64,000 nucleotides of DNA from an uncultured virus (IMG/VR IMGVR_UViG_3300037458_000449) (lineage: Duplodnaviria; Heunggongvirae; Uroviricota; Caudoviricetes): the IMG/VR virus record IMGVR_UViG_3300037458_000449. The stretch is one strand, 5' to 3'. Below are positions 29,444 through 63,205 of this stretch, in pieces. The position numbers were made by a program, and so were the translations under genes. Position 1 is the stretch's first letter. Each line of letters opens with the position of its first letter. Below the pieces are notes generated by a model. The model was not told where the DNA came from and searched no databases. It saw only the letters and a program-made list of their open reading frames with translations.

Positions 29444-32400
29444 ATGGCCCAAACGGTCGCTGAGTACCTTCGTTCGCGCGGCATCAACAACGACCAGGGC
29501 GGCGAAGGGCCGACAACGGGCGATACGCTCGATCGAATCCTGCAGCGCCGCGGCTCGACGCGACTGGCAGGCGTGGCCCGTTCGATCTACGGGCAGGAAT
29601 CCAGCTACGGCGCTGCCGATACGTCGCAGCCGAACTCGTCCGACGTCCGCGGCCCCATGCAGGTCAAAGACACGACGTTCGCGCAGATGCAGCGTGAGGG
29701 GCGCATCCCGGCCAACTATCGCTGGGACAACCCCGAGCACAACACCGAGGCCGGCGTCGCCTACATCGAAATGCTGGCCGAGAAGACCGGCGGCGACCCG
29801 CGCAAGATCGCGCAGGGCTACTACGGCGGCCCCGGCGCGATCGGTAAGGAATCCCGTCGCGACCCGCGCAACCCGAGCGCGCCGACCGTCGGCCAGTATG
29901 GCGACGAGGTCGTTTCCCGCATGGGCGTCACGGGCCCGGCACGCGCGACGGCCCCGAGCGGCGCAATGTCGCCGTGGCAGTACCTCGAGCAGCAGCGCAA
30001 CGCGAGCCGCGCCGCGCCGTCGGTCGATCTCGAGAAAGCCGTAGTCGAGGAACGGGCGCAGCAGACCGCGGAGCCAGGCGGCCCGGCGATGACGTGGGAT
30101 CAGGTCGTGCAGCATGAGGCCTGGCTCAAGGCCGACAGCGACACCCGCGAGCAGATCCGCGAGCGGTACTGGCAGGACGAGGTCGCGCCGCGCATCCCCG
30201 CCGACCAGCAGGCCGCGGCCCGCAAGCTGTTCGATCAGGACACAAACCCGAGCCTCGCGCGCCGCATCGGCGATGCAGGCCGGGCGATCGCCGGCGGCGC
30301 GATTCAGGGCGTCGGCATGACCGTCCGCGGCGCGGGCGAAATGATGCGCGAGGGCGCGCAGCCGATCGCCGCTGGCATTGCCGCCCTGGGCGGCCCCGAA
30401 ATCACCCCGATCAACCCGCTCGATGGGGCAGCAAACGCCATCGAGGGCTACAGCCAGGGCGTGCTCGACAGCCGCAGCCTCGCGAGCCAGATGGCGCAGC
30501 AGCAGTCCACGCCCGAGGGCGACGTCAGCGACCCGGCGACGTGGTCGATGGGTCAGGATCCGTCGCTGGGCGGCTACATCCAGCACGGCGCCGTCATCCT
30601 CGGCCAGTTCGCGCCGATCATTGCCAGCGTCGCGCTGACCAAGAACCTGCCGGTTGCCGGCCAGGTGGCGGTCGCCGGCGGCCTCGGTGGCGCGCAGGGC
30701 GGCGGTGCAGCGGCGCAGCAGGCCCGCGAGACGATCGAGGGCATGGACGAGGCCGAGCTCGCCAAGGAGTCGTCCTACTATCGCCAGCTGCGCGAACGCC
30801 TCGGGCATGAGCAGGCCAAGGCGATGACGGCGGCCGAGGCTGCCAAGTGGGCCTTCCGCATCACCCTGCCCGTCTCGGCGGCCGGCGGCGCCGCCACGGG
30901 CGCGATCCTCTCGCCAGCGGTTCGCCTGGGCGCGGGCCTCGTCGGCGGATCCTACGTCGGTAACATGGCGCTGCGCGGCACGGCGAGCGCCATCGAGGAA
31001 GGCCTGCAGGAAACCGGCGAAGGCATTGCGACCGAACAGGGCATCAACGTCGGCGCCGGCACCGAGCGCGACGTCATGGCGGGCAGCTTCCCGAACGCCG
31101 TCCTGGGCGCAATAGGAGGCGCTACTCCGGGCGCTGGCTCCGGCGCACTCGCAGCCCATGCCGAGCGCGCGCGCCAGGCAGCGGCCAACCTGCGCGGCCA
31201 GCCGACCGTTTCGCCGGCACCCACGAACCCGCAGACCGGACCCGCTACGCCGCCCCCGGCTGGCGGCCCGACACCGCCCCCGGCAGGCGGTGGTCCGCGT
31301 CCGGCTGGCCCGACGAGCCCCGAGGGCCCGATTCCGGCCGAGGAAGTGCTCGGCCCCGTGCTCGACGGCGGCCCGGCCGCCCCCGAACCCGCTCCGGCGA
31401 CCGCCCCCCCCTTGGCGCCGTCTCCTGTCGCTGCTACCAACGGACCAGCGCAGGAGGCGGCGCCTCTTTTGGAGGATGCCGAGCAAGGCGGCAGCCGTTA
31501 CAATAAGGGACATGAACAAGCGAACAGGCCTAACGCGGAAGTTCCCGGCCGAGTACCGAACGTATCGGTGGATGATCCGTCGGTGCCGGGATCAAAATCT
31601 GCGGATATACGCGGAGTACGGGGGCAGAGGGATCAAGGTCTGCCGGCGGTGGACGGAGAGCTTCGCCCACTTCCTGACAGATATGGGACCGCGTCCGGCG
31701 CCGCTGATGTCGCTGGACAGAATCGACCCGAACGGCCACTACGAGCCGGCGAATTGCCGGTGGGCGACCGCGCAGCAGCAAGCGGCGAACCGGAGGTTTT
31801 GCCGGATCGTGGAGTTTCGTGGTCAGCGGATGACCGTACAGGAGGCGGCGAGACTGGCGGGAGTGCCGCCGATGACATTCCGACAACGGGTGTTACGGCA
31901 GGGACTCGACCCGGAGCGAGCGGCGACGCTGGGCCGACTCCCTTATCGTCGGGACTCGAAATTCCTGACGCACAACGGGGTAACGATGGCCGTGCCGGAG
32001 TGGGCTCGCCACCTGGGAATCAGAGTGCGGACGCTTCGGGAGCGGATTCGCAGGGGGGCGCCCCTCGAGCGAGTATTACGACAGGGATTGATGCGGCGGC
32101 CCATGAAGCAGCTACATCCCCTCTGAATGATCGACCAGAACCGACGCAAGCTCAGAAAGAAGCGGGGAATTACAAGGTCGGAAGGGTCCGCGTTCAGGGC
32201 CTCGACATCAGCATCGAGAACCCCAAGGGCAGCGAGCGCAAAGGCGTCAGCAAGGACGGCAAGCCGTGGTCCACGGTCATGCCCGGCCACTACGGGTACA
32301 TCAAGGGCACGGTCGGCAAGGACAAAGACCACATCGACGTGACGCTGGGCGATGCGCCCGACGACACCTCGCGCCCGATCTTCGTGTTCAACCAAGCTGA

Positions 32401-35400
32401 TGCCGGTTCCGGCAAGTTTGACGAGCACAAGACCTTCATGGGTTACGCTGACATCGACGCGGCACGCAAGGCGTATCGCGAGTCGTTTAGCGGCAAGCTC
32501 GGCCGGAAGATGGAGAACAACCTTCTCGGCATCGCCAAGTTCACGCCCGAGCAGTTCAAGGAATGGCTGGCCAGCGGCGACCACAAGAAGCCAGCGCAGA
32601 CGCCTACAACCGCGAAACCAACGCAAGCAATCGCGGAAACCGAAACCGCCAATGCTGCCGAGGAAGTAACCCCGCCCGCCCGATCGCTGTACGTCGAATG
32701 GAACGGGCGGCGGCATGCGGTAGCCAGCGTCGAAGATGCGCAAGCCAAGTGGGCTGAGTTCCGCGATCGTAGCGCCGCGGGCGCGAGCGAGATTGGCAGT
32801 AACCTCGAGGTCAAGGATTCCACCGGGGCGATCGTCGCGCACATCACCTACAACGGACGCGCTTGGACGCCCGAGGAATGGGCGGCGAGGAACAAGCCGA
32901 AGGATGAGGCGCCGAAGGCGAAAGACCCGCTGGGGGCGACAGGGCCGGAGGCGGCCGGATGGTCAGCGTTCCAGGAAGGGAAGCCGCGAGTGCCGCCAGA
33001 CTGGACCAAAGGCCCAGCGGCAAAGAAATGGCTCCAAGGGTGGGACCGCGCCAACATTGCGGCGCCAGTCCCCGACGAAACCTCAGCCGAGGCACCGACT
33101 CCGTCACCCAATACGATCTTCACTGAGGACGCCGCCGAAAAGGCTCGAGCGATCCTGCGGGCCAAGCTCGGCCAGGCAAATGCCGGGCTTGATCCGGAAC
33201 TGGTGCAGGCCGGCATCACACTGGCTGGCTACCACGTCGAGAAGGGCGCACGGACCTTTGCCGCCTACGCCAAAGCGATGGTCGGCGACCTCGGCGACAT
33301 TGTGAAACCCTACTTGAAGTCATGGTACGCGGCACTCGCTTTCGACCCGCGTGCCGAGGCCTTTGCCTCGGAAATGACCCCGGTCGGCGAACTGGCTGCA
33401 CTGAATGTTGACGCGCTGCTGTCCGAGGCGCCCGCGGTGGACGCGGAGCCAAGTCCGGCGCAGAATGGAGACGCAGATGCAAACGCTACTGAAACCGAAC
33501 AGCTACCCGCCGGAGATCCGAGAGCAACTCCGGTTGATGACGCCGCTCGCGACGGAGATCGCGAACAGGTGGATGCTGGGCTGGCCGAAGTCGGTCGCGT
33601 CCCTGATCGAGGACGGGGCGTACCTGGAGACACTGCGGGAGCAGGAGAAGCAGGAACTGGACGTGTACAGCCAGCCGGGGAACGATCACCTCGCGCGCCA
33701 CGAGATAGCGGAACTGTACGGCCTGAGTCCGGCCCCACCGACGCTGGGCTGACCGACCACTCCCTCGCCGATACCGACCTCGGCAAGGGTTCCCTCACGC
33801 AGAAGTACCGCGACAACATCGCGGCCATCCGCATCCTGCGCGCGATGGAGGCGGAACAGCGCATCGCCACGCCCGAAGAACGGGCCGCGATTGCCAAGTA
33901 CGTCGGTTGGGGCGCGCTCAAGGGCGTGTTCGACCCCAACAACAAGACTTGGGCAAAGCAGCACGCCGAACTCAAGGGGCTGCTGACGGAGGCCGAGTGG
34001 AAGGCCGCGCGCGCGTCGATTTTGAACGCGCACTACACCTCGAAGACCGTGGTCGAGGCGATGTTCTCGGCGCTCGATGCGTTGGGCTTCAAGCGGGGCC
34101 GGGTGCTCGAGCCGTCGGTTGGCGTCGGCAACTTCTTCGGCCTCATGCCGCCGTCAATGCGGACCAACTCGCAGTTGCACGGCGTCGAACTCGACTCGTT
34201 GACGGCGAAGATTGCCGCGGCGCTCTACCCGAGCGCGAAGGTCAAGCAATCCGGCTTCGAGGCGTTCGACATCCCGAGCGGCTACTTCGACCTTGCGATC
34301 GGCAACCCGCCCTTTGGCAGCGAGGCGATCGTGGACGATGCGCGCTCGCCCTACAGCGGCTTCTCGATCCACAACTACTTCTTTGCCAAGAGTATCGACA
34401 AGCTGCGGCCCGGCGGCCTGCTGACGATGGTCGTCTCGCACAGCTTCATGGACGCGAAGAACGAGACTGCGCGGCAGTGGATCGCCGACCGGGCGGACCT
34501 CGTAAGCGCCGTACGCCTGCCAAACACCGCGTTCAAGGAGAACGCCGGGACCGAAGTCGTCACCGACATCCTCGTGTTCCAGCGGCGCGACGGTGCAGCC
34601 CCGCGCAAGCCGTCCTGGGTGACGCCGGTCGAGCAGTCCGTGACGGACCCGAAGACGGGCGAGACGGCGAAAGCGTGGGTCAACCCCTACTTCGTGGAGA
34701 ACCCCACCAACGTGCTCGGCACGCCGAGCGCGGGCGGCACCATGTACCGCGCGGGCGAGTACACGGTCGAGCCGGTCGAAGGCTGGCAGGGGAAACTGAA
34801 AGAGTGGGCCAAGGCGCTCCCGGCCGTCTATACGCCGATCAACCGCACAGAGGAAATGAGCGCGGCCAACTACGAAGTGCCCGACGGCCTCAAGGTCGGC
34901 TCGTTCTTCGTGGATGGACAGGGCAACGTGCGCCAGCGCGGCACCGGCCATTTGGGCGAGCGCACGGCCGAAGTCTGGAACCCGCCGAACGCGCGGGCTG
35001 CCGAGCGCATGAAAGGCATGATTGAATTGCGCGACCTGCTGCGCAGCCAAATTCGCCTCGAGCGATCGGCCGATGCGACCGAGACGCAGATCGAGGAGAA
35101 CCGCAAGCGTCTGAACGGCCGCTACGATGCGTTCCTCAAAAAGAACGGACACCTCAACTCGCCCACCAACCGGCGCGTGTTCATCCACGACACCGAGGCG
35201 CCGCTTCTGCTCGCGCTCGAGTTCGACTTTGACCGCGGCATTTCCAAGGCCATCGCCGAGCGGGACGGCATCGATGCGCGCGACCCGAGCGCCAAGAAAG
35301 CCGACATCCTGCAACGGCGCGTGCTCTTTCCGCCGTCCGACAACATCAAGGTCGCCTCGGCCCAGGATGCGCTCCTCGCGAGCCTCAACTACAAGGGCGC

Positions 35401-38400
35401 GGTCGATCTTGAGTACATGGCGCGCGTCTTCCCCGAAAAGTCGGCCGAGGAAATCGAGGCCGAGTTGGGCGATACGATCTTCCGCGATCCGCAGGCCGGG
35501 CTCGTCACGGCCGACGAGTACCTGTCCGGAGACGTGAAGACCAAGCTCACCGAAGCCGAGGCGGCCGCCAAGGGCGACCCGGCCTACCAGCGCAACGCCG
35601 AAGCACTGACGAAAGTCATCCCGCGCGACAAGGGGCCGAGCGAAATCAGCGTGCAGTTGGGCGCGAACTTCCTCCCGCCAGCGATCTACGAGGCGTTCGG
35701 CAAGCACGTCAGCGGGCGCGACTTCACGATCCGCTACGGCGCCGGCCAGTGGTTCATCGACCAGACCGGCTATGCCGACCCGTCGCTTAACGAGGGCAAG
35801 TACGGCATCCGCGAAATGACGGCCGTCGAGATATTCGACCACTCGATGAGCGGGCGCGGTGTCGTCGTGAAGGAAACCGTCCGCCACTCCGACGGATCGA
35901 CCACGACCTTCGTCAAGGAGCGCGAGACCGAACTCGCGCGCGAGAAGCAGTCGGCGATGAAGGCCGAGTGGAAGGCATGGCTGTGGGGCGACCCGGAGCG
36001 GGCGGCCGAAGTTGCCCGTCTCTACAACGAAAAGTTGAACCGCATCGTGCCGCGCAAGTTCGACGGCTCGCACATGACCTTCCCCGGCATGAGCCCCGCC
36101 GTGACCCTGCTCGCGCACCAGAAGAACGGTGTGTGGCGCGGACTGCAAGCGCGTCAGGTGCTCTACGATCACGTCGTCGGCGCCGGCAAGACGTTCCAGA
36201 TGGCAACACTTGCCATGGAGGCCCGGCGCTTAGGTATCGCGCGCAAGCCCCTGTTCGTCGTTCCGAACCACCTGACGCTGCAATGGCGGCAGGAGTTCTA
36301 CAAGCTCTACCCGAGCGCATACATTCTCGTCGCCGAACCGGACGACTTCTCCAAGGGCAACCGCGAGAGGTTTTTTTCCAAGATCGCCACGGGCGACTGG
36401 GATGCGGTCGTCGTCGGCCACTCCTCCCTCAAGAAGATCCCGCTGCCGGATGCCACCGAGCAGGCGATATTCGAGGAGCAGATCGAGGAAATCTCCAACG
36501 CCATCGAGCAACTGAAAACCGAACGCGGCGACCGCCACATCCTGCGCGACATGGAGCGGATCAAGAAGAACTTGCAGGCCAAGATGCAGGAGCGCGCCAA
36601 CGCGCGCGGCACCCGCGACAACGTGCTGTCCTTTGACGAACTCGGCATCGACGGCGTGTTCATCGATGAAATGCACGAGTTCAAGAACCTGTTTTACAAC
36701 TCGCGCATGGACCGCACGGCCGGCATGGGCAACCCCGCAGGCTCGGCCAAGGCGTTCGATCTGTTCGTGAAACTGCGCTGGCTCACCGATACTCTCGGGC
36801 CGAAGGCGCTGCTCGTGACGGCGACCGGCACCCCGGTCAGCAACTCCCTGGTCGAGATGTACACCATGCAGCGGTACATGCAGTACCAGACCCTCAAGGG
36901 GCTCGATCTGCATGTGTTCGATGCGTGGGCGGCGCAGTTCGGCGAAGTCGAGCACGTCTACGAGGTGAAGCCCTCGGGCGTTGGCTACCGGCAGAGCAAC
37001 CGCTTCTCCAAGTTCGCCAACCTGCCGGCGCTCATGGCGCTCTACAACTCGTTCGCCGACACCATCACGCTCGAGGACTTGAAGGGACAGGAGGAGGCGC
37101 AGGGCCGTCGCTTCCCGGTCCCGAAGATCGCCACGGGCCGCCCGGTCAACGTCGTCGCCCAGCGATCCCCGCGCGTCGCCGATTTCATGGGCGTGCCGCA
37201 GGTGCAGCGCAACGAGAATGGGGATCTTGCCTTCAAGTGGCAGCCTGGCGAATGGGACATCACCAAGGACGAGGCGACCGGCAAGTTCAAGGCGAAGATC
37301 CGCGACGAAGGCGCCCAGCACTGGTACGAGGCGGGCACCTATGAAACGGAGGCCGATGCCAAGGCGGCGCTCGTCGCCCGTGCGCTGGCCCCGGTCATCA
37401 CGGTCAGGCCCGAGTCCATCCTCGGCCAGTTCGAGAACCTGAAGCAACTCACGGCGCAGACCAAGGGACGCATCAATGCGCTCTCGTTGACGGGCCTCGC
37501 CAACAAGGCCGGGCTCGACTACCGGCTGATTGACCCCTCGGCGCCGGACTTCGCCGGATCGAAGATCAACCTTGCGGTCGAACGAATCGTCGCGGCCCAC
37601 AAGAAATGGCGGGCCGACAAGGGTGCGCAGCTCGTATTCTGTGACCTGTCGGTGCCGCTCAGTGCGCGCACCGCGCTCGCCGCAAAGGAGAAGTTCGCCT
37701 ACGTTCGCGGCTCCGACGGCACGATCGAGCGGGTTCGCGCAACGCTCCACACCGTCGAAGGCGTCGAGCAGTTGCCGTATTTCATGGTCGCCCGCGGCAA
37801 AGGAAGCGACCGCACCGTGGCGGTCTACGATGCAGACACGGGCCTTCGCGTACAGGATGGGTTCCGCGACCGCGGCGCCGCACGGACGTTCGTGGAGGAC
37901 ATGCTGGGCGACGCGGAGAAGCGCCAGCGATGGCTCGATGCGCGCATGGGCCGACCCGAACTGACGCAGGACGAGATTGACGAGTTCAACGACGCGAACG
38001 ACATCGACACCGAGGAAGTGCCCTACATCACGCTCGAGGACATCGCGGGCACGGCGGGCGCCTCGGCGTTCAGCGTCTACGATGACATCAAGGCCAAACT
38101 CGTCGCGGCGGGCATTCCTGAGCGGGAAGTCGCCTTCATCCACGACTACGACACGCCCGCAGCCAAGGCCAAACTGTTCGCCGCCGTCAACGCGGGTCGG
38201 GTGCGCGCGCTCCTGGGCTCGACCCCGAAGATGGGCGCCGGCACGAACGTGCAGAAGCGCCTCGTTGCGCTCCACCACATCGATGCGCCCTGGCGCCCGT
38301 CCGACCTCGAGCAGCGCGAGGGCCGCATCGTCCGGCGCGGCAATGACCTTTACGAGCGCGACCCCGACGGGTTCGAGGTGGAGATTTACCGCTACGCCAC

Positions 38401-41400
38401 CGACCAGACCTACGACACGCGCCGATGGCAGATCCTTGAGCACAAGGCGCGCGGTATCGAGCAGTTGCGCAAGTACGACGGCACGACAAACGAGATTGAC
38501 GACATCGAAGGGGAAGCCGCCAACGCCGCCGACATGAAGGCCGCGGCCTCCGGCGACCCGATGATTCTGGAGGAGACGCGCCTCAAGACCGAAATCAAGC
38601 GGCTGGAGAACGTGCAGGCGGCCCACGCCGACACGCAGATGAGCCTCGTCCGAAAAGCTGCCTCGATGGAGAACGAGGCGACGGGATGGCTTCCGAAGGT
38701 GATTAACGGGCTGGAACAACTCGTTGCCAAGACGGAGCCTAAGCCGGAGAAGGGCTTTGCGGGCATGACGGTCGAAGGCACCAAATATGCCGCGAAGGAC
38801 GATGCCGGGAAGGCGCTCGGTGAGCGCGTGGCGACGGCCGTCGCGAGCATCGACCCGGCTGCACCGCGCAAAGCCATCCGCGTCAGCCTCAAGTACCGCG
38901 GCCATAGTTTCAGCGTGGACGTATTCAAGCCTGCATTTGAAGGCGGGCAGCCCAGCATCGAACTGAATGGGCCGGATGGCCCCGTCTCCCTGTACAGTTG
39001 GAGCGACGTGTTCTCGGCGACGGGTGCGATTCAGCGGCTGGACAACTACCTCGATCGGTTGCCGTCCGAAATCGATTACAACCGCGAGAAGATCAAGAAG
39101 AACCTTGCCGATGCCGTGAAACTGCGCGAGGAGGCGAAGACGCCATTCGGTCAGGCCGATGCATTGGCCGAGGTACGCTCGCAGTATCGGCGCGTGCAGC
39201 AGGCGTTGATGGCCAAAGGCCCGTCGGTGCCGGCGGAACAGATCGCATCGCTCAAGGCGGCCACCGAGGCGCAGAAGAAGGCTATCCGCAAGGCAGGCTT
39301 GGGCAAGACGCTGGCCGAGATCATGCCCGGCGAGCCCGATGAGGGCGCGGCGTCCGAGGCGCCGAAGCCGCGCCGCCGGCTTGACCAGCGTGCCCTGCGC
39401 GAAGGCCGGGAGCAGCCGGAGATGCCGACCCTGAGTGTGCGCGGCGATTCTGTCTTCTCCCGCCGTGCTGCGCCGGCCGAGCAGACGGGCGCGAGCGTTG
39501 CCCAGGTCTACCGCTGGCTCAAGCAGCAACCGCTGTTCGACCGGGTCCATGTGGTGAAGGACGTTGCGGGCCTGCGCCGCGTCGTCGGCGATCCCAATAT
39601 TTTCCCCGACACCGAGGGCTACTACCGACTCGGCGACGACAAGGTGTATCTGGTCGCCTCGATGATCCCCGATCTGGCGACGGCCGAGACGCTGTATCGC
39701 CATGAGGTCGAGGGACACCTGGCGGTCGAGCTCTACGGCGACATACAGGCCGCGGTCGGCGACGTGCTGGCAGCCAAGAACAGCGCGGCGATCGCGCCCC
39801 TGTGGGCCGAGGTTGCGAAGACGCAGCCGAACCTGCCCCCGAAGATGCACGCCCGCGAGGTCATCGCGCTGGTGGCCGAGCGCGGCACCAAGTTCCCGGC
39901 GGTCGATCGCCTCGTCGGTCGGGTGCGGGCCCTGCTACGCAAGCTCGGCATCACGCTCAAGTTCAGCGAGGCCGACATCCGCGGCATCGTGGCAAACGCG
40001 GCCAGGGCGGCGGCCAAGGGCGGGCCGAGGGGCCCGCGCGGCGGGCAGCAAGCCGTGGCCTCTCGCATGGGTGCGAATCTCTACTACGGCGAGGCGGCAA
40101 ACAGCGCGTGGGATGGGCTCGGCTACTTCCTGTCCGAAGCCCTCTCGCGGATGAGCGGCACCCGCAAGCCGCCGACGTGGGCCGACTGGCAGCGCACCGT
40201 CCGCGAGGCGCTGCGTGACGCGCCGGCCGGGTCGGCAGAGCACGCGGCTCTCAGTAAGCTGCTCGAGTCGCTGAGTGACGAGGTCGTGCTGCGGAACCTG
40301 CGCAACTACCATCGTGCGTGGAACCGCGAAAGCGTTGGCGGGGTCGATTCGGCCGGCAAGGCGATCGCCAAGGCCATCGGCGCCCGGTGGGAGGCGCTGG
40401 CCGACGGCAATGAGGACTACGATCCGCCCGTGGTGTTCCGCCGCGGCGGCCAGCGCGCCCCCGCCTCGCTCGACCATACCGGCCTGATCGACGCTGCGTT
40501 CAAGCACCTGGGCGGCAAGCAGTTCGGGCGCCTCATCACGTCGCCGCTGTACGACCGGCTGATCCGCGCCGGCAGCGCCGTGATCCCCGAGAAGGTGAAG
40601 CAGGGCCTCGTCGCCGACTACGGGCTCCCCGAGCCGTACCTCGACGCGAAGATCGACAAGCAGGCAGCCGTGAACCGGGTGCTTCGCAAGACCAAGAACC
40701 TGGTCGAAATGCTCGCCGGCCTCGATCGCGAGCAGTCGCGCGTCGCCTACCTGTGGATGAACGAGAAGCCCGACACGGACCTCGAGGCTCACCTGTTGAG
40801 CCAGCTGCCCGCGGACAGCCGGGAAGTCATGCAGCGCATGAAGGAAATGGTGGACGAGCTCGGCCGCCAGGCTGTCGAGGTCGGGCTGCTGACGCAGGAC
40901 TCCTACGACCGCAACGCCATGGCGTACCTGCACCGCAGCTACAAGGTCCACATGACCACCAAGGGCGAGTCGGTGAAGGCCCGCCACAAGAAGAACGCCA
41001 GCATCCGCGCCGACAACTACAAGGGCCGCGGCATCCGCGACAACGTCGATCCGGCGAGCCTGGGCGAGTTCCAGCTCGGCGACAAGCGGCTGCGCATCGA
41101 ACTGCGCGGCCCGCGCGGCGGCTTGCGCGAAGTCCGCTACATCGAACTCGACGCCCCGGTGCCGGACGGCTGGACGGCTGACGGCGAATGGGAAGTCCGC
41201 TGGCAGGATCAGCGGCCCGGCCAGGGCGAGGTCGTCGGCATGTGGCGCGACCTGACGCCCGACGAGCGCCAGCGGCTCGGCGAGGTCGAGGAAGTCCGCT
41301 ACGCCTTCGCGAAGACCATGCTCAACGCGATCCACGACATCGAGAACCAGAAGTTCCTCGCGTGGGTCGGCGACGAGTACGGTGTCGATCCGGCCGGCAT

Positions 41401-44170
41401 CGACCCGGAGAATCTGGTTGAGGCCAGCGACGGATTCCTGACGCTCAAGACCTATCGGCCGGATCAGTATGTGAAGGTGCCGAAAAGCGGCATCCCGAAG
41501 ACGCCCGGCCTCAAGAAGTACGGCAAGCTCGCCGGCCAGGTAATCCCGGCCGTCATGTGGAACGACATCCGCAACACGATGGCGCTGCCCGAAAGCGACT
41601 TCGCGCGGTTCCACGACAGCGTGATGAGGGCCTGGAAGATCAGCAAGGCGCTGGCGCTCGACACACCGATCCCGACGCCGGCCGGCTGGACCACCATGGG
41701 CGACCTGAAGCCCGGCGACACCGTGTTCGATGAACGCGGCCAGCCAGCCGAGGTCTTGCAAGCGACCGAGACGCAGCACAACCATGAGTGCTACCGGGTG
41801 GAGTTTTCGGACGGCACCAGCATCGTCGCCGATCGCGGCCACCTGTGGATGACGCACTACCGAGGTGCACCCGGAATCCGTGAAACGCACGAAATTCTCG
41901 CGACCCTCAAGGAGCCGACGCGCGGCGACAACAACCATTCGATCCCGGTGGCGGGGGCGATGGTCCTTCCCGACGCCGACCTGCCGATTCACCCCTACGT
42001 CCTCGGCCTGTGGCTTGGTGACGGGCATTCGAGCGGCGCGCGGGTAACGACCGGCGCCGACGATGCCGACGAGGTCATGGGATACGTCAAGGAGGCCGGG
42101 TACGAGATTGGCGCCATTCGCCGCGATCCTCGTTCGGCCGCGATCGACTTCGGACTGCGTGCGCTGGGAGTCAACGGCAAACTGGATGGCAAACGTCGCC
42201 ACGAATCCGTCCAAGCGAAGCTGCGCGTCCTCGGCCTGATTAACAACAAGCGCATCCCGGCTGTTTACCTGCGCGCCTCTGAGGCGCAGCGCCGCGCGCT
42301 CCTGATGGGGCTCATGGATTCCGACGGGCACATCACCGACAAGGGAATCTGCGGGTTCTGCACCACCGACGACGCCATCAAGGACGGCATTCTCGAACTG
42401 CTGCGCTCGCTCGGCTACAAGCCGACGGTCACGCAACACGAAACACGATGCAATGGCAAGCCGGCTACCCCTGCCTGGAAGGTCCATTTCAAGGCATACG
42501 CCGACCGGCCGGTGTTCAAGCTGGCGCGCAAGGTTGCCCGCCTGCGTCTGCCGCCTGAGACGCGGCAGCGGTCGCAGACCCGGCAGATCGTTGCCGTCAC
42601 GCCCGTCCCGTCGGTGCCGGTGCGCTGCATTCTGGTGTCGTCGCCGTCGCACCTGTTCCTGGCCGGCGCTGGCATGGTGCCGACGCACAACACCGCGCTC
42701 TCGCCGACCGTTCACATGAACAACGTGATGTCGAACTTCGTGCTGGCGGACATCGCCGAGGTCCGCGCCCGCGACATCGCCCGCGCCCTTCGCACGATCG
42801 TCAACGCCAGGCAGGGCGACGAGGCCGCCAAGGATCTGATCGCGCGTTACGAGGACTCCGGCGCCGAGCAGGGCTCGTTTCATGCCATGGAGATCCAGCA
42901 GGACATCATCAAGCCGCTGCTCGCCGAGCTCGAGAACACCGAGGACGAGTCGCTGCTCGGCCAGCTGTCGGCGGTGCAGATCGTGTCCCTGCTCAAGGCG
43001 GGCGACATCAAGAACGCGGCGAAGGCGATCGCGCAGAAACCGGGCCTCAAGCAGACCTTGGGGGCCGGCAAGAAGATGATCGACCTGTACCGGAGCGAGG
43101 ATTCGGTGTTCCGCCTCGCGAAGTTCATGCGCGAGTCCGAGGCCGGGAAGTCCGACCGAGACGCCGGCAAGGCGGCCCGCGATGCCTTCCTCAACTACGA
43201 GATCAACGCCCCGGTGATCCAGACCTTGCGCCGGACAGCCCTGCCGTTCGTCGCGTTCAGCTACCGGGCGATCCCGCGGATGATCGAGACGGCGGCGCGC
43301 AAGCCGTGGAAGCTCGCCAAATACTTCACGGCAGGCGCGGCGCTCAACGCCATGGCCTACGCGATGATGGGCTTGGGCACCGACGACGAGGACCGCGAGC
43401 GCGCCCTGCTCCCCGAAGAACTGCAGGGCCGCGTGCTGGGCGTGTTCCCCCGCCTGGTTCGGCTGCCGTGGCACGACAGCAATGGCGCCCCGACGTTCCT
43501 CGACGTGCGCCGATGGGTGCCGGCCGGCGACATGATGGACACCATGGGCTCCCATTCGGTGCTGCCGCTGCCGAACTGGCTCAGCCTGGGCGGCCCGCTG
43601 GCGTTCGCGCTCGAGGCGTACACCAACAAGAGCATGTTTACGGGCGAGCCCATATTTAAGGAGAGCGATACCCCCGGCCAGCGGGCGGCGAAGTTCGCCG
43701 ACTACGCTTTCAAGTGGGCCTCGCCCAACCTGCCGCTGCCGAATCCGGCGAATTTCGTCCTGCCGGCGGGCCGCGACGGCGACGAGCCGCGCGTGATCGA
43801 CCTCGGCCTGATCCCCGGCATCGACCTCGACCAGCTGCAGACCTACGCATGGACGGGCGTGATGCGCGCCGGCACGGGCCGCGAAGATGCTTTCGGCCGC
43901 GAATCCGGGTCGGTGGCGCAGGCCCTCGCGTCGAGCGTCGGTATCAAGGTGCGGAGCTACCCGATCGACGTCGCGAAGAAGCGCGTCATTGGCGAGCTCA
44001 ACTTCATGAACACCGAGATCGACCGCAACATCCGCCAGCTGTCGCGCGAGCGGGCCCGCGGCGGCCTGACCGAGGCCGAGTACCGGCGGCGGCTCGAGGT
44101 CGAGGTTGGGAAGAAGCAGGATCTCTACCGGAAGGCAGCCGAGCGCCTGGGCGCCGGGGCGCAGCCGTAG
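29444..44170 (+). CDS. Giant DarB-like polyvalent virion protein (4908 aa): lytic transglycosylase, inorganic-pyrophosphatase-like, N6-adenine MTase, SNF2-like helicase, putative metallopeptidase, intein-containing C-terminus
   Basis: QESS..GPMQV..YYGGPG; GNYKVG..ISIENPKGS..HYGY..DKDHIDV..FDEHK; VLEPSVGVGNF and GNPPFG; VGAGKT, DEMH, TATGTP, QREGRIVRRGN; HEVEGH. Confidence 0.9.
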   Translation: MAQTVAEYLRSRGINNDQGGEGPTTGDTLDRILQRRGSTRLAGVARSIYGQESSYGAADTSQPNSSDVRGPMQVKDTTFAQMQREGRIPANYRWDNPEHNTEAGVAYIEMLAEKTGGDPRKIAQGYYGGPGAIGKESRRDPRNPSAPTVGQYGDEVVSRMGVTGPARATAPSGAMSPWQYLEQQRNASRAAPSVDLEKAVVEERAQQTAEPGGPAMTWDQVVQHEAWLKADSDTREQIRERYWQDEVAPRIPADQQAAARKLFDQDTNPSLARRIGDAGRAIAGGAIQGVGMTVRGAGEMMREGAQPIAAGIAALGGPEITPINPLDGAANAIEGYSQGVLDSRSLASQMAQQQSTPEGDVSDPATWSMGQDPSLGGYIQHGAVILGQFAPIIASVALTKNLPVAGQVAVAGGLGGAQGGGAAAQQARETIEGMDEAELAKESSYYRQLRERLGHEQAKAMTAAEAAKWAFRITLPVSAAGGAATGAILSPAVRLGAGLVGGSYVGNMALRGTASAIEEGLQETGEGIATEQGINVGAGTERDVMAGSFPNAVLGAIGGATPGAGSGALAAHAERARQAAANLRGQPTVSPAPTNPQTGPATPPPAGGPTPPPAGGGPRPAGPTSPEGPIPAEEVLGPVLDGGPAAPEPAPATAPPLAPSPVAATNGPAQEAAPLLEDAEQGGSRYNKGHEQANRPNAEVPGRVPNVSVDDPSVPGSKSADIRGVRGQRDQGLPAVDGELRPLPDRYGTASGAADVAGQNRPERPLRAGELPVGDRAAASGEPEVLPDRGVSWSADDRTGGGETGGSAADDIPTTGVTAGTRPGASGDAGPTPLSSGLEIPDAQRGNDGRAGVGSPPGNQSADASGADSQGGAPRASITTGIDAAAHEAATSPLNDRPEPTQAQKEAGNYKVGRVRVQGLDISIENPKGSERKGVSKDGKPWSTVMPGHYGYIKGTVGKDKDHIDVTLGDAPDDTSRPIFVFNQADAGSGKFDEHKTFMGYADIDAARKAYRESFSGKLGRKMENNLLGIAKFTPEQFKEWLASGDHKKPAQTPTTAKPTQAIAETETANAAEEVTPPARSLYVEWNGRRHAVASVEDAQAKWAEFRDRSAAGASEIGSNLEVKDSTGAIVAHITYNGRAWTPEEWAARNKPKDEAPKAKDPLGATGPEAAGWSAFQEGKPRVPPDWTKGPAAKKWLQGWDRANIAAPVPDETSAEAPTPSPNTIFTEDAAEKARAILRAKLGQANAGLDPELVQAGITLAGYHVEKGARTFAAYAKAMVGDLGDIVKPYLKSWYAALAFDPRAEAFASEMTPVGELAALNVDALLSEAPAVDAEPSPAQNGDADANATETEQLPAGDPRATPVDDAARDGDREQVDAGLAEVGRVPDRGRGVPGDTAGAGEAGTGRVQPAGERSPRAPRDSGTVRPESGPTDAGLTDHSLADTDLGKGSLTQKYRDNIAAIRILRAMEAEQRIATPEERAAIAKYVGWGALKGVFDPNNKTWAKQHAELKGLLTEAEWKAARASILNAHYTSKTVVEAMFSALDALGFKRGRVLEPSVGVGNFFGLMPPSMRTNSQLHGVELDSLTAKIAAALYPSAKVKQSGFEAFDIPSGYFDLAIGNPPFGSEAIVDDARSPYSGFSIHNYFFAKSIDKLRPGGLLTMVVSHSFMDAKNETARQWIADRADLVSAVRLPNTAFKENAGTEVVTDILVFQRRDGAAPRKPSWVTPVEQSVTDPKTGETAKAWVNPYFVENPTNVLGTPSAGGTMYRAGEYTVEPVEGWQGKLKEWAKALPAVYTPINRTEEMSAANYEVPDGLKVGSFFVDGQGNVRQRGTGHLGERTAEVWNPPNARAAERMKGMIELRDLLRSQIRLERSADATETQIEENRKRLNGRYDAFLKKNGHLNSPTNRRVFIHDTEAPLLLALEFDFDRGISKAIAERDGIDARDPSAKKADILQRRVLFPPSDNIKVASAQDALLASLNYKGAVDLEYMARVFPEKSAEEIEAELGDTIFRDPQAGLVTADEYLSGDVKTKLTEAEAAAKGDPAYQRNAEALTKVIPRDKGPSEISVQLGANFLPPAIYEAFGKHVSGRDFTIRYGAGQWFIDQTGYADPSLNEGKYGIREMTAVEIFDHSMSGRGVVVKETVRHSDGSTTTFVKERETELAREKQSAMKAEWKAWLWGDPERAAEVARLYNEKLNRIVPRKFDGSHMTFPGMSPAVTLLAHQKNGVWRGLQARQVLYDHVVGAGKTFQMATLAMEARRLGIARKPLFVVPNHLTLQWRQEFYKLYPSAYILVAEPDDFSKGNRERFFSKIATGDWDAVVVGHSSLKKIPLPDATEQAIFEEQIEEISNAIEQLKTERGDRHILRDMERIKKNLQAKMQERANARGTRDNVLSFDELGIDGVFIDEMHEFKNLFYNSRMDRTAGMGNPAGSAKAFDLFVKLRWLTDTLGPKALLVTATGTPVSNSLVEMYTMQRYMQYQTLKGLDLHVFDAWAAQFGEVEHVYEVKPSGVGYRQSNRFSKFANLPALMALYNSFADTITLEDLKGQEEAQGRRFPVPKIATGRPVNVVAQRSPRVADFMGVPQVQRNENGDLAFKWQPGEWDITKDEATGKFKAKIRDEGAQHWYEAGTYETEADAKAALVARALAPVITVRPESILGQFENLKQLTAQTKGRINALSLTGLANKAGLDYRLIDPSAPDFAGSKINLAVERIVAAHKKWRADKGAQLVFCDLSVPLSARTALAAKEKFAYVRGSDGTIERVRATLHTVEGVEQLPYFMVARGKGSDRTVAVYDADTGLRVQDGFRDRGAARTFVEDMLGDAEKRQRWLDARMGRPELTQDEIDEFNDANDIDTEEVPYITLEDIAGTAGASAFSVYDDIKAKLVAAGIPEREVAFIHDYDTPAAKAKLFAAVNAGRVRALLGSTPKMGAGTNVQKRLVALHHIDAPWRPSDLEQREGRIVRRGNDLYERDPDGFEVEIYRYATDQTYDTRRWQILEHKARGIEQLRKYDGTTNEIDDIEGEAANAADMKAAASGDPMILEETRLKTEIKRLENVQAAHADTQMSLVRKAASMENEATGWLPKVINGLEQLVAKTEPKPEKGFAGMTVEGTKYAAKDDAGKALGERVATAVASIDPAAPRKAIRVSLKYRGHSFSVDVFKPAFEGGQPSIELNGPDGPVSLYSWSDVFSATGAIQRLDNYLDRLPSEIDYNREKIKKNLADAVKLREEAKTPFGQADALAEVRSQYRRVQQALMAKGPSVPAEQIASLKAATEAQKKAIRKAGLGKTLAEIMPGEPDEGAASEAPKPRRRLDQRALREGREQPEMPTLSVRGDSVFSRRAAPAEQTGASVAQVYRWLKQQPLFDRVHVVKDVAGLRRVVGDPNIFPDTEGYYRLGDDKVYLVASMIPDLATAETLYRHEVEGHLAVELYGDIQAAVGDVLAAKNSAAIAPLWAEVAKTQPNLPPKMHAREVIALVAERGTKFPAVDRLVGRVRALLRKLGITLKFSEADIRGIVANAARAAAKGGPRGPRGGQQAVASRMGANLYYGEAANSAWDGLGYFLSEALSRMSGTRKPPTWADWQRTVREALRDAPAGSAEHAALSKLLESLSDEVVLRNLRNYHRAWNRESVGGVDSAGKAIAKAIGARWEALADGNEDYDPPVVFRRGGQRAPASLDHTGLIDAAFKHLGGKQFGRLITSPLYDRLIRAGSAVIPEKVKQGLVADYGLPEPYLDAKIDKQAAVNRVLRKTKNLVEMLAGLDREQSRVAYLWMNEKPDTDLEAHLLSQLPADSREVMQRMKEMVDELGRQAVEVGLLTQDSYDRNAMAYLHRSYKVHMTTKGESVKARHKKNASIRADNYKGRGIRDNVDPASLGEFQLGDKRLRIELRGPRGGLREVRYIELDAPVPDGWTADGEWEVRWQDQRPGQGEVVGMWRDLTPDERQRLGEVEEVRYAFAKTMLNAIHDIENQKFLAWVGDEYGVDPAGIDPENLVEASDGFLTLKTYRPDQYVKVPKSGIPKTPGLKKYGKLAGQVIPAVMWNDIRNTMALPESDFARFHDSVMRAWKISKALALDTPIPTPAGWTTMGDLKPGDTVFDERGQPAEVLQATETQHNHECYRVEFSDGTSIVADRGHLWMTHYRGAPGIRETHEILATLKEPTRGDNNHSIPVAGAMVLPDADLPIHPYVLGLWLGDGHSSGARVTTGADDADEVMGYVKEAGYEIGAIRRDPRSAAIDFGLRALGVNGKLDGKRRHESVQAKLRVLGLINNKRIPAVYLRASEAQRRALLMGLMDSDGHITDKGICGFCTTDDAIKDGILELLRSLGYKPTVTQHETRCNGKPATPAWKVHFKAYADRPVFKLARKVARLRLPPETRQRSQTRQIVAVTPVPSVPVRCILVSSPSHLFLAGAGMVPTHNTALSPTVHMNNVMSNFVLADIAEVRARDIARALRTIVNARQGDEAAKDLIARYEDSGAEQGSFHAMEIQQDIIKPLLAELENTEDESLLGQLSAVQIVSLLKAGDIKNAAKAIAQKPGLKQTLGAGKKMIDLYRSEDSVFRLAKFMRESEAGKSDRDAGKAARDAFLNYEINAPVIQTLRRTALPFVAFSYRAIPRMIETAARKPWKLAKYFTAGAALNAMAYAMMGLGTDDEDRERALLPEELQGRVLGVFPRLVRLPWHDSNGAPTFLDVRRWVPAGDMMDTMGSHSVLPLPNWLSLGGPLAFALEAYTNKSMFTGEPIFKESDTPGQRAAKFADYAFKWASPNLPLPNPANFVLPAGRDGDEPRVIDLGLIPGIDLDQLQTYAWTGVMRAGTGREDAFGRESGSVAQALASSVGIKVRSYPIDVAKKRVIGELNFMNTEIDRNIRQLSRERARGGLTEAEYRRRLEVEVGKKQDLYRKAAERLGAGAQP
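31512..32126 (+). CDS. Nested HNH-type homing endonuclease (204 aa) in +1 frame inside the giant ORF
   Basis: AAGGGA RBS then ATG; [64 protein letters not shown]; two C-terminal HTH-like repeats. Confidence 0.88.
   Translation: [204 protein letters not shown]
33477..33752 (+). CDS. Nested small protein (91 aa) in +1 frame inside the giant ORF
   Basis: GGAG RBS 6 nt before ATG; globular sequence MQTLLKPNSYPPEIRE..EIANRWMLGWP..HLARHEIAELYG while the host frame reads as low-complexity linker. Confidence 0.75.
   Translation: MQTLLKPNSYPPEIREQLRLMTPLATEIANRWMLGWPKSVASLIEDGAYLETLREQEKQELDVYSQPGNDHLARHEIAELYGLSPAPPTLG
41648..42691 (+). mobile_element. Class-3-type intein with LAGLIDADG endonuclease (348 aa)
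   Basis: Starts ALALDTPIPTPAGWTTMGDL; GHLW, VRCI, PTHN|T (W-C-T triad); PYVLGLWLGDG and LLMGLMDSDG. Confidence 0.92.
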
Positions 44171-62663: not shown

Positions 62664-63205
62664 CCAAGGCGAAGGGCAAGACGCCCCGCAAACGCCGCCA
62701 GAAATTGCTGATCGAGGGGACCGTCGCTGACCAGGTGCCCAAGGACACCGCCACCCCGCTCGACGCCGCGGCCTTCGATGCTCTCTGCGCCCACATCGCC
62801 GAGGGCAACAGCCTGCGGGCATGGGCTCGCGAGGCAAATCGGCCAGTCGCCACGGTCGCCAAGTGGATCCTCTCGAACGAGGATCGCACCAAGCTCTACC
62901 GCGAGGCCCGCAAGATGCAGGCCGACGCGCACATTGACGACATCATCGAGCTTTCCGACAGCCCGGTGCCGGTGGACGACCAGGGCCGCACCGACTCGGC
63001 GGCCGTCAACCAGCTGCGGCTGCGCGTGGACACCCGCAAGTGGATCGCGTCGAAGTACCACCCGGCCATGTACGGCGAAAAGGTGGACGTCAACGCGACG
63101 TTCCGCGGCGCCGACCAGAAACCCGACGAGATCCTGGCGCGGATTACCGCGCTGCTCGCCGCTCACGGGCTGCGGATCGCACCAGCTGACCCGACCGAGC
63201 CGTGA
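62660..63205 (+). CDS. terS: Terminase small subunit
   Basis: LCAHIAEGNSLR, YREAR..QAD, RLRVDTRKWIASK..P..YGEK (Sf6 gp1-like). Confidence 0.88.
   Translation: MTKAKGKTPRKRRQKLLIEGTVADQVPKDTATPLDAAAFDALCAHIAEGNSLRAWAREANRPVATVAKWILSNEDRTKLYREARKMQADAHIDDIIELSDSPVPVDDQGRTDSAAVNQLRLRVDTRKWIASKYHPAMYGEKVDVNATFRGADQKPDEILARITALLAAHGLRIAPADPTEP

What the first reader, a model, noticed from the sequence alone, without database searches (positions are those of the whole stretch)
33477..33752. Second nested +1-frame gene in another linker of the same giant protein
Seen: GGAG-N6-ATG opens a 91-aa globular-looking ORF (EIANRWMLGWP, HLARHEI) that ends right before the MTase module; the host frame over it is low-complexity (DADANATETEQLPAGDPRATP...). 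It uses the same frame offset as the nested HNH. Inference: polyvalent proteins may grow by reading through whole neighbouring genes, so a small partner gene of the MTase-helicase stayed functional after being engulfed. Linkers of such proteins may generally hide genes.
Basis: partly seen in the sequence, partly recalled or inferred. Interest (0 to 1): 0.75.

Follow-up and report, generated by a model that had tools for sequence, protein, structure and literature searches.

The report
Hidden small gene inside giant phage gene
A real, conserved gene for a 91-residue helical protein is written one base out of step inside the floppy spacer of a 4,908-codon phage anti-restriction gene, so one stretch of DNA makes two proteins and routine annotation misses the small one.

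Summary
ATG 33477 to TGA 33752, behind GGAG-N6, opens a 91-codon ORF in the +1 frame of the 29444..44170 giant ORF. That ORF carries SLT, InPase, an Eco57I-type methylase, an SNF2-like helicase and an intein-like domain, and it ends the structural module of a Bcep22-like podophage.

- **The nested frame codes.** GC3 there is 0.84-0.94, against 0.38-0.54 in the host frame.
- **It has relatives.** 68 homologues of about 90 aa and 133 representative clusters; none lies in frame inside a large protein.
- **Selection acts on the nested protein.** Median pN/pS is 0.52 nested and 1.37 host.
- **The host frame is kept open.** 35 of 38 related loci have a giant host ORF in the same offset. In four loci of 39-40% GC it is stop-free although 7.5-8.4 stops are expected (0 of 5000 shuffles).
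- **It sits beside the methylase.** The small gene ends within -46..+104 nt of the methylase module. It is also nested in two MOBP plasmids and in Pseudomonas phage 8P, where it is unannotated.
- **It folds.** AlphaFold2 gives a five-helix protein (pLDDT 89.5) with no fold or Pfam match.

Function is unknown. I infer a partner of the DarB-like methylase-helicase, possibly a distant TnpV-like protein (hhalign E 3e-4). This scan had already found the same layout on other DNA (e1-6252167 and others).

The parts
33467..33470 (+). Shine-Dalgarno-like GGAG, six bases before the nested start codon
   Evidence: Read directly. An SD-like motif lies 4-11 nt upstream of the start in 21 of 30 unique related loci.
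33477..33752 (+). Nested 91-codon gene (+1 frame of the host ORF) for a five-helix protein of an unnamed family; the end coordinate includes the TGA stop
   Evidence: Translation. GC3 is 0.84-0.94 in this frame. 68 homologues, with W32, G35, W36, H71, L72, A73, H75, E76, P87 and P88 invariant. Median pN/pS 0.52, and 0.12-0.20 in close pairs. AF2 pLDDT 89.5, pTM 0.78.
33420..33760 (+). Host-frame spacer: low-complexity stretch of the giant protein read over the nested gene, kept free of stops but not conserved as protein
   Evidence: Host-frame GC3 is 0.38-0.54. Host-frame median pN/pS is 1.37, up to 4.4. In four relatives of 39-40% GC, 0 of 5000 synonymous shuffles are stop-free. The boundaries are approximate.
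29444..44170 (+). Giant host ORF (4908 aa), a DarB-like polyvalent virion protein. Domains: SLT 29579-29866, InPase 32147-32569, Eco57I-type methylase 34250-34516, ResIII/SNF2 helicase 36146-36565, Helicase_C 38123-38341, Hom_end/LAGLIDADG 42284-42457
   Evidence: ORF list and Pfam. The methylase region matches 120 phage records at E<=1e-10, including DarB-like proteins of Bcep22, JC1 and PEp14, and P1 DarB at 29% identity. It lies after the portal, major head, internal virion and tail fibre genes.
33752..35671 (+). N-terminal part of the methylase module, which begins where the nested gene stops
   Evidence: tblastn to 41 loci. Alignment A2 of 16 sequences, 60-67% identity to the window.

Best explanation
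This is an overprinted (embedded) gene.

The late mRNA of a Bcep22-like podophage carries a 4908-codon gene for a DarB-like polyvalent virion protein. Between its N-terminal modules (SLT, InPase) and its methylase-helicase module lies a spacer of about 92 codons. In the host frame only the length and the absence of stops matter there.

In the +1 frame the same bases encode a 91-residue five-helix protein. Ribosomes make it by starting internally at its own GGAG-N6-ATG. This small protein is the sequence-constrained product.

**Shown:** both frames are maintained by selection; the small protein is conserved and is predicted with high confidence to fold; the arrangement and frame offset are conserved across phages, prophages and plasmids; and the gene always sits ahead of the methylase module.

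**Inferred:**
- Translation is by internal initiation.
- The small protein works with the methylase-helicase, for example as an assembly or packaging helper or a regulator of that module. It would be made on the same mRNA just before the methylase N-terminus emerges. I give this functional part about 0.4.
- The overlap arose in a GC-rich genome, where the -1 frame of a high-GC3 gene is open by default, and was then held by selection as the element spread to AT-richer hosts.
For: - **Codon signal:** GC3 flips to the nested frame exactly over the ORF.
- **Family:** 68 homologues of 69-156 aa, most near 90 aa, at 47-81% identity. A profile search of 1.84 billion representatives gives 133 hits at E<=1e-3. 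All but two are 264 aa or shorter, and none is an in-frame domain of a giant protein.
- **Start:** ATG stands at the aligned first codon in 31 of 38 loci and GTG in 2. An SD-like motif is present in 21 of 30 unique loci.
- **Nesting:** 35 of 38 loci hold the ORF inside an open frame of 610 to more than 3700 codons, always with the same offset.
- **Host frame kept open:** none of 24 tested unique loci has a host-frame stop. P(open) is 0/5000 in 4 loci of 39-40% GC, 0.002-0.17 in 10 loci of 57-63% GC, and 0.20-0.43 in 10 loci of 67-70% GC.
- **Selection:** over 351 pairs, the nested frame has mean pN 0.29 and pS 0.58, and the host frame pN 0.39 and pS 0.29. For L001/L012, omega is 0.13 nested and 4.4 host.
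- **Link to the methylase:** the module starts -46..+104 nt from the nested stop in 35 of 38 loci.
- **Same layout elsewhere:** phage 8P, two MOBP plasmids at 36-38% identity, and distant clade members L045, L056 and L048/49.
- **Fold:** the AF2 model is confident.
- **Not an assembly error:** contigs of three runs carry 33200-34000 with no difference or gap, though those runs may be the source of this DNA.
Against: - There is no direct evidence of translation. No RNA run holds the stretch, and no proteome or ribosome profiling was available.
- No promoter-like site lies nearby, so the small gene depends on the giant gene's transcript.
- In the window alone the open host frame is not significant (P=0.43).
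- An SD-like motif is missing in 9 of 30 unique loci.
- The functional link to the methylase rests on position only.
- Three of the 38 close loci (L005-L007) and four of the seven distinct distant loci (L046/47, L050, L051-54, L055) carry the gene free-standing without a methylase nearby. The protein can therefore presumably act without it.
- Nei-Gojobori estimates on overlapping frames are biased, and distant pairs are near saturation. The direction of the contrast is robust but the values are not.
Confidence: 0.85

Rival explanations
1. The small protein is real but functionally unrelated to the methylase-helicase. It merely resides in a spacer that tolerates any sequence, as a hitch-hiking gene with its own role (for example regulation or host takeover).
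For: Free-standing homologues occur without any methylase nearby. They sit beside a T5orf172 protein (L005), near a type I HsdR (L006), beside a cpYpsA/SLOG protein (L046), and beside a HAD hydrolase (L053). The other nested ORF in this giant gene looks like a sporadic homing endonuclease that uses a spacer in this way.
Against: The position directly ahead of the methylase module is kept in 35 of 38 close loci while the upstream domains change. It is also kept in distant clade members and in plasmids. In 6 of 6 other DarB-like phage genes a small +1 ORF sits at the same spot.
Confidence: 0.1
2. Recoding rather than a separate gene. Either ribosomes shift +1 from the host frame, giving an N-terminal product that ends in the 91-aa domain, or they start at the nested ATG and shift -1 near its end into the methylase-helicase frame.
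For: The host frame is -1 relative to the nested frame, as in IS3-type orfA/orfB pairs (recalled). An SD-like element precedes the junction. A nearly invariant Pro-Pro lies a few codons before the nested stop; Pro-Pro is a known ribosome-stalling motif (recalled).
Against: - ATG or GTG stands at the aligned first codon in 33 of 38 loci.
- Nested-frame stops lie as close as 15-18 nt upstream of it.
- Free-standing homologues have the same length and the same Pro-Pro.
- Only 3 of 29 unique sequences contain any X_XXY_YYZ heptamer, and none is at a shared position.
- No protein in 1.84 billion representatives shows the domain fused in frame.
Confidence: 0.04
3. The giant ORF is not really read through. 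The small gene is an ordinary gene between two genes, and the host frame is open over it by chance or through an assembly error.
For: In this 67% GC window a stop-free host frame over the ORF has P=0.43. PGAP annotated the plasmid homologues as separate genes.
Against: - The upstream part of the host ORF has no stop before the spacer.
- The host frame is open in 28 of 29 unique related sequences. That includes four of 39-40% GC, where 7.5-8.4 stops are expected (0 of 5000 shuffles).
- There are no indels in contigs of three runs.
- Homologous giant proteins are found in virions of JC1 by mass spectrometry (passages of PMC9144972).
Confidence: 0.02
4. A chance ORF in a GC-rich alternative frame, not a gene.
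For: The window has many long spurious ORFs, for example 1414 and 1206 aa on the minus strand of the giant gene.
Against: The GC3 flip, 68 homologues with a conserved start and stop, purifying selection in the nested frame and a confident fold all speak against it.
Confidence: 0.01

Closest known systems
traH nested in traI of IncP plasmid RP4
   Same: [quoted passage not shown] Its product acts on the host gene's product: TraH stabilises the TraI-TraJ relaxosome (passage read in PMC7314908).
   Different: The sequences are unrelated. Here the host stretch is an unconstrained spacer between modules of a virion-borne polyvalent protein, and binding of the small protein to the host protein is not shown.
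Embedded spanin genes Rz1 within Rz (phage lambda; also Bcep22-like phages)
   Same: A complete gene with its own start lies out of frame inside another phage gene, and both products are made. Sources: search listing and abstracts of PMC5295617 and PMC6139136, and a passage on embedded Rz1 in Lessieviruses in PMC9144972. That Rz1 is in the +1 frame is recalled.
   Different: In Rz/Rz1 both frames encode constrained, interacting lysis proteins. Here only the nested frame is constrained as protein, and the host gene is about 50 times longer than the nested one.
TnpV-like ORFs (Pfam PF14198, below threshold) nested at the same spot of other DarB-like phage genes (PEp14, LASTA, POI1126, JC1, Bcep22, Gerry)
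   Same: They share the position (directly ahead of the methylase N-terminus), the +1 offset, the GC3 flip and a small helical product. They also share the motif W-x3-P-x3-hydrophobic-x2-L-x3-G-x-L-x2-L and a C-terminal Pro-Pro. hhalign of the two families gives E 3.2e-4 over 59 columns.
   Different: No member of the window's family reaches Pfam TnpV even at E<=1 (0 of 26), and the hhalign probability is only 39%. The products are 105-135 aa there against about 90 aa here. Of 50,697 deposited phage genomes only phage 8P holds this family.
Phage P1 DarB with its accessory proteins (Ulx, DdrA, DdrB, Hdf)
   Same: The host gene's methylase module is homologous to P1 DarB (29% identity, E 9e-19). 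P1 DarB needs small accessory proteins, and none has been identified in Bcep22-like phages (passage in PMC9144972). A hidden small partner would fill that gap.
   Different: P1 DarB starts at the methylase domain, and ulx is a separate downstream gene. Ulx shows no similarity to this family (hhalign probability 1%).

Membership tests
Overprinted (embedded, out-of-frame) gene pair | Two open frames on the same strand over the same bases | tested here: met
   33477..33752 lies inside 29444..44170, offset +1. The same holds in 35 of 38 related loci.
Overprinted (embedded, out-of-frame) gene pair | The nested frame is under purifying selection as protein | tested here: met
   Median pN/pS 0.52, and 0.12-0.20 in close pairs. 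Third nested codon positions are the most variable (entropy 0.78, 0.68, 1.13).
Overprinted (embedded, out-of-frame) gene pair | The host frame is maintained by selection across the overlap | tested here: met
   Stop avoidance: 0 of 5000 synonymous shuffles are open in four loci of 39-40% GC. Its amino-acid sequence is not conserved (pN/pS 1.37).
Overprinted (embedded, out-of-frame) gene pair | Independent translation of the nested gene | not testable with these tools
   Only sequence signals are available: ATG or GTG at the aligned start in 33 of 38 loci and an SD-like motif in 21 of 30. No RNA or proteome data.
TnpV (Pfam PF14198) | Match to the family profile above the gathering score (27 bits) | tested here: not met
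   0 of 26 family members match at E<=1. A six-frame search of four records holding the locus gave no match at the site.
TnpV (Pfam PF14198) | Remote homology to TnpV-like proteins by profile-profile comparison | tested here: inconclusive
   hhalign A6 against A5 (the PEp14-type nested family, itself below the threshold for TnpV at 20.7 bits): E 3.2e-4, probability 38.7%, 59 columns.
DarB-like antirestriction / polyvalent protein (the host gene) | N6-adenine methylase domain followed by an SF2 helicase in one polypeptide, homologous to P1 DarB | tested here: met
   Pfam Eco57I, ResIII/SNF2 and Helicase_C. tblastn to P1 darB, E 9e-19, and to annotated DarB-like proteins of Bcep22, JC1 and PEp14.
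DarB-like antirestriction / polyvalent protein (the host gene) | Several unrelated effector domains in one giant protein of a phage or plasmid | tested here: met
   SLT, InPase (a polyvalent-protein domain family), methylase, helicase and Hom_end in 4908 aa. Phage context.
DarB-like antirestriction / polyvalent protein (the host gene) | Packaged in the virion and protects incoming DNA from restriction | not testable with these tools
   The 8P homologue is annotated 'structural protein'. JC1 gp69 was found in virions by mass spectrometry (PMC9144972 passages). Nothing was tested for this phage.
Programmed -1 frameshift gene pair (IS3-like orfA/orfB) | Conserved slippery heptamer X_XXY_YYZ near the end of the upstream frame | tested here: not met
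   3 of 29 unique sequences have any such heptamer, none at a shared position.

The most novel reading that the evidence does not exclude
Giant DarB-like anti-restriction proteins of phages and plasmids are two-component systems. Their second subunit is a small helical protein hidden out of frame in the spacer just ahead of the methylase module: this family here, TnpV-like ones elsewhere. The overlap would be functional. The small protein is made on the same mRNA a few hundred bases before the methylase N-terminus emerges, so it can load onto the nascent module in cis. There it could control its folding, packaging into the capsid or activity. It would be the missing counterpart of P1's accessory Dar proteins.
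Probability: 0.3. Interest if true: 0.85.

Novelty: new variant of a known kind. Interest (0 to 1): 0.7.

Why it matters
- **Annotation.** Embedded out-of-frame genes are known in phages and plasmids (Rz1 in Rz, traH in traI). I found no description of one inside a polyvalent or DarB-like giant protein. The founding paper on polyvalent proteins contains none of the words overlapping or frameshift, and its uses of nested and embedded concern other things (find in PMC5512222). A search for 'polyvalent protein' with 'overlapping gene' returned one unrelated paper. The small gene is unannotated in phage 8P, and it distorts the annotation of the plasmid methylase genes.
- **Evolution.** The case is unusually clean. 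One frame is constrained as protein and the other only as an open spacer, and this holds across hosts from 39 to 70% GC. That makes it a good model for how overprinting arises and persists.
- **Function.** It points to an unstudied component of a widespread anti-restriction system.
- **Testability.** It can be tested directly with a start-codon mutation that is silent in the host frame.

Tried and rejected
- **Complex prediction.** Complex prediction of the small protein (A1) with the first 640 residues of the methylase module (A2) gave no verdict, score 0.00. This is no evidence either way.
- **Fold searches.** The AF2 model found nothing meaningful: Foldseek PDB best E 3.9, BFVD best E 3.5, VIA-align wide best Z 4.9 with none at Z 5 or more.
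- **Family libraries.** There was no hit for the 91-aa protein in Pfam, PHROGs or NCBIfam. The 115-aa upstream-extended ORF gave one weak PHROG hit (E 0.015), which lies in the non-conserved extension.
- **ESM Atlas.** It returned only unnamed Pseudomonadota clusters and DUF6061 at 0.75, which is below the level of a lead.
- **Fused forms.** The 'longer' search found one 228-aa protein only.
- **TnpV.** A Pfam TnpV six-frame search of 400 genomes of the class of G002 found nothing above the cut-off. I could therefore not build a canonical TnpV alignment.
- **P1 Ulx.** No similarity.
- **Promoter.** The scan of 32500-34300 found none.
- **Expression.** No RNA holder is listed for the stretch.
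- **Phage 8P.** No paper on it is in the library, so I could not check whether its virion proteomics saw the small protein.
- **Other nested genes.** I looked for a further nested gene in the methylase-to-helicase region of this window, as reported for other genomes by earlier notes. There is no GC3 flip and the host frame codes normally there.
- **Distant family loci.** A scan with the broad alignment A3 failed for lack of a conserved stretch. The narrower A4 was used instead.
Full report
**What is there**

The window is a phage genome of about 64 kb and 63-71% GC. It carries terminase, portal, major head, internal virion and tail fibre genes, an acyltransferase and an Erf-type recombinase. 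This gene order matches the Bcep22-like podophages described in PMC9144972 (passages).

The structural module ends with one ORF of 4908 codons, 29444..44170. Pfam finds in it SLT, InPase, an Eco57I-type N6-methylase, ResIII/SNF2 and Helicase_C, and a Hom_end/LAGLIDADG stretch. Its methylase region matches 120 deposited phage genomes at E<=1e-10. Among them are the 'DarB-like antirestriction' proteins of Bcep22, JC1, PEp14 and others, and P1 DarB itself at 29% identity.

The finding's ORF is exactly as described. GGAG lies at 33467-33470, then six bases, ATG at 33477 and TGA at 33750-33752, giving 91 codons one base ahead of the host frame. The host frame over it reads a D/A/G/R/P-rich stretch.

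**Is it more than chance?**

This genome is full of long spurious ORFs, so openness alone means nothing. Four independent lines show that the nested frame codes.

- **Codon signal.** In 150-nt windows, GC3 of the nested frame rises to 0.84-0.94 across 33420-33750, while the host frame falls from about 0.75-0.9 to 0.38-0.54. Over the whole giant ORF only two stretches do this: 31424-32200 and 33374-33763.
- **Homologues.** The 91-aa protein has 68 homologues at E<=0.01, at 47-81% identity. Most are 89-97 aa and share the start (MQxL) and an end a few residues after an invariant Pro-Pro. A profile search of 1.84 billion representative proteins finds 133 clusters at E<=1e-3. All but two are 264 aa or shorter. 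Those two (697 and 1193 aa) match only profile positions 54-91, in six stretches each. A word-based search among longer proteins found one 228-aa protein. The domain is therefore never seen fused in frame to a large protein.
- **Selection.** On 27 sequences and a gap-free block of 60 codons (351 pairs), the nested frame has mean pN 0.29 and pS 0.58, median ratio 0.52. The host frame has pN 0.39 and pS 0.29, median ratio 1.37. In close pairs such as L001/L012 omega is 0.13 nested against 4.4 host. These estimators are biased for overlapping frames, but the direction is unambiguous.
- **Fold.** AlphaFold2 on the family alignment gives a confident five-helix model (pLDDT 89.5, pTM 0.78).

**Is the host frame really read through?**

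In the window alone this cannot be decided. With a nested GC3 near 0.9 the -1 frame rarely has a T in first position, and 43% of synonymous shuffles of the identical contig L010 stay open. The relatives decide it.

- Of 38 loci with a full-length homologue (8 from genomes, 30 from IMG/VR), 35 hold it inside an open frame of 610 to more than 3700 codons, always with the same offset.
- Among 24 unique loci that could be tested, none has a host-frame stop. The probability of that under synonymous shuffling is:

| Loci | GC | P(host frame open) |
|---|---|---|
| 4 (Acinetobacter-type) | 39-40% | 0 of 5000 (7.5-8.4 stops expected) |
| 10 | 57-63% | 0.002-0.17 |
| 10 | 67-70% | 0.20-0.43 |

- Contigs of three public runs carry 33200-34000 without a difference or gap. 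They may be the source of this DNA, so this only excludes a consensus error.

Both frames are therefore maintained. The nested one is kept as a protein; the host one is kept as an open spacer of fixed length.

**How the small protein is probably made**

ATG stands at the aligned first codon in 31 of 38 loci and GTG in 2. In the Variovorax-type clade a second ATG three codons upstream has GGAG-N6 before it. An SD-like motif lies 4-11 nt upstream in 21 of 30 unique loci. Nested-frame stops lie as close as 15-18 nt upstream of the start.

Free-standing homologues have the same length. Only 3 of 29 sequences contain any -1 slippery heptamer, none at a shared place. Internal initiation is therefore far more likely than recoding. 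No promoter-like site lies nearby, so the giant gene's transcript is the likely template. None of this is direct evidence of translation.

**Link to the methylase-helicase**

In 35 of 38 close loci the conserved methylase N-terminus (..IGKGGL.KKYRDN..) begins -46 to +104 nt from the nested stop. The window's upstream domain is detectable in only 13 of the 41 loci examined, and in most of these it lies about 580-750 nt upstream.

The same layout occurs elsewhere.

- **Phage 8P.** The small gene lies inside the 15.4-kb 'structural protein' CDS 8P_023 and is not annotated.
- **Distant clade.** Members L045 and L056 are giant InPase-methylase-helicase ORFs, and L048/49 is a methylase ORF.
- **Two MOBP plasmids at 36-38% identity.** PGAP lists a separate 96-aa protein followed by an 'N-6 DNA methylase'. 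In fact the methylase frame is open from about 450 nt upstream, with an N-terminal domain conserved between the two plasmids and the same GC3 flip.

Exceptions exist.

- L005-L007 are chromosomal loci of Piscinibacter and two Lysobacter species.
- L046/47, L050, L051-54 and L055 are from the distant clade.
- All of these carry the gene free-standing, beside unrelated genes.
- L004/L033 has one in-frame stop inside the methylase N-terminal region.

**Relation to other nested genes**

Prompted by earlier notes of this scan, I sampled six other DarB-like phage genes: PEp14, JC1, Bcep22, Gerry, POI1126 and LASTA.

- All six hold an unannotated +1-frame ORF of 105-135 aa directly ahead of the methylase N-terminus. 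Nested GC3 is 0.71-0.86 against host 0.34-0.48.
- Four of the six give sub-threshold Pfam TnpV matches, 13.7-20.7 bits against a cut-off of 27.
- The window's family gives none (0 of 26 at E<=1).
- A profile-profile comparison of the two families aligns 59 columns, including the W..P...V..L...G.L..L core, at E 3.2e-4 and probability 39%. This is suggestive of remote homology but does not prove it.
- Of 50,697 deposited phage genomes only 8P carries the window's family.
- P1 DarB begins at the methylase domain and has its accessory gene ulx downstream. Ulx is not similar.

**Function**

Function is unknown by homology. There is no Pfam, PHROG or NCBIfam family and no structural neighbour (best VIA Z 4.9).

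From position alone I infer a partner of the methylase-helicase module. It could be an assembly or packaging helper or a regulator, made on the same mRNA just before the methylase N-terminus is synthesised. I give this about 0.4.

The JC1 paper notes that P1 DarB needs small accessory proteins and that none has been found in Bcep22-like phages. A hidden partner would fit that gap. The main rival is that the spacer is simply a tolerant place for an unrelated small gene, as the free-standing homologues and the sporadic HNH-like ORF in the same giant gene suggest.

**Origin**

The -1 frame of a high-GC3 gene is open by default (P about 0.4 at 67% GC), and the host-frame translation looks like off-frame sequence. 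I nevertheless found no intermediate with the small gene standing free between two separate genes of this system. The plasmid cases that look like that in the annotation are nested on inspection.

**Comparison with what is known, and novelty**

The kind is known: Rz1 in Rz, and traH in traI of RP4, whose product stabilises the relaxosome formed by the host gene's product. Three things are new here.

- The host gene class is a polyvalent DarB-like giant protein.
- The protein family is new.
- The selection is asymmetric, with a protein in one frame and a mere spacer in the other.

I found no description in the polyvalent-protein paper or by search. I could not see any paper on phage 8P.

The scan itself has reported the same layout on other genomes (e1-6252167, e1-6285033, e1-6222468 and others). 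My tests here are independent of those notes.

Noticed in passing
window 31476-32126 (inside ORF 31158..32126, + strand): This is the other nested +1-frame ORF. It reads like a phage HNH-type homing endonuclease with C-terminal helix-turn-helix repeats; the HNH label is my reading of the sequence, recalled, because Pfam gave only weak HTH hits. GC3 flips to its frame at 31424-32200. Among all fetched loci only the identical contig L010 has it, so it is a sporadic insertion that leaves the giant frame open.
   Followed up: partly
L063-L068 (phages PEp14, JC1, Bcep22, Gerry, POI1126, LASTA), about 40-400 nt upstream of the methylase N-terminus: All 6 sampled DarB-like giant genes hold an unannotated +1-frame ORF of 105-135 aa with a GC3 flip at the same spot. 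Four give sub-threshold Pfam TnpV hits.
   Followed up: partly
L043 1323-3542 and L044 4568-10267 (plasmids NZ_CP026547.1, NZ_CP021369.1): The RefSeq annotation starts the 'N-6 DNA methylase' genes downstream of the small gene. The frame is in fact open with a conserved N-terminal domain (MQLDLFGAT...) about 450 nt upstream of it, so the annotated methylase starts are probably too late.
   Followed up: partly
window 42284-42457: A Hom_end/LAGLIDADG match lies in the C-terminal part of the giant ORF, suggesting an intein or an in-frame homing endonuclease domain.
   Followed up: no
L004/L033 6750-6752: A single in-frame stop lies inside the conserved methylase N-terminal region of the Rubrivivax MAG prophage; the frame continues for 1837 codons after it. 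It could be a nonsense mutation, an error or a split gene.
   Followed up: no
L005 6358-7662; L006 7651-10818 (-); L046 2736-3461: Free-standing homologues of the small protein lie next to a T5orf172-domain protein, near a type I restriction HsdR, and overlapping the start of a cpYpsA/SLOG protein. These neighbourhoods look like defence or mobile-element contexts.
   Followed up: no
window 592-1449 and 63202-63981: Both ends of the window match large-terminase families. The window thus looks like a circularly permuted, near-complete phage genome cut within or near the terminase gene.
   Followed up: no
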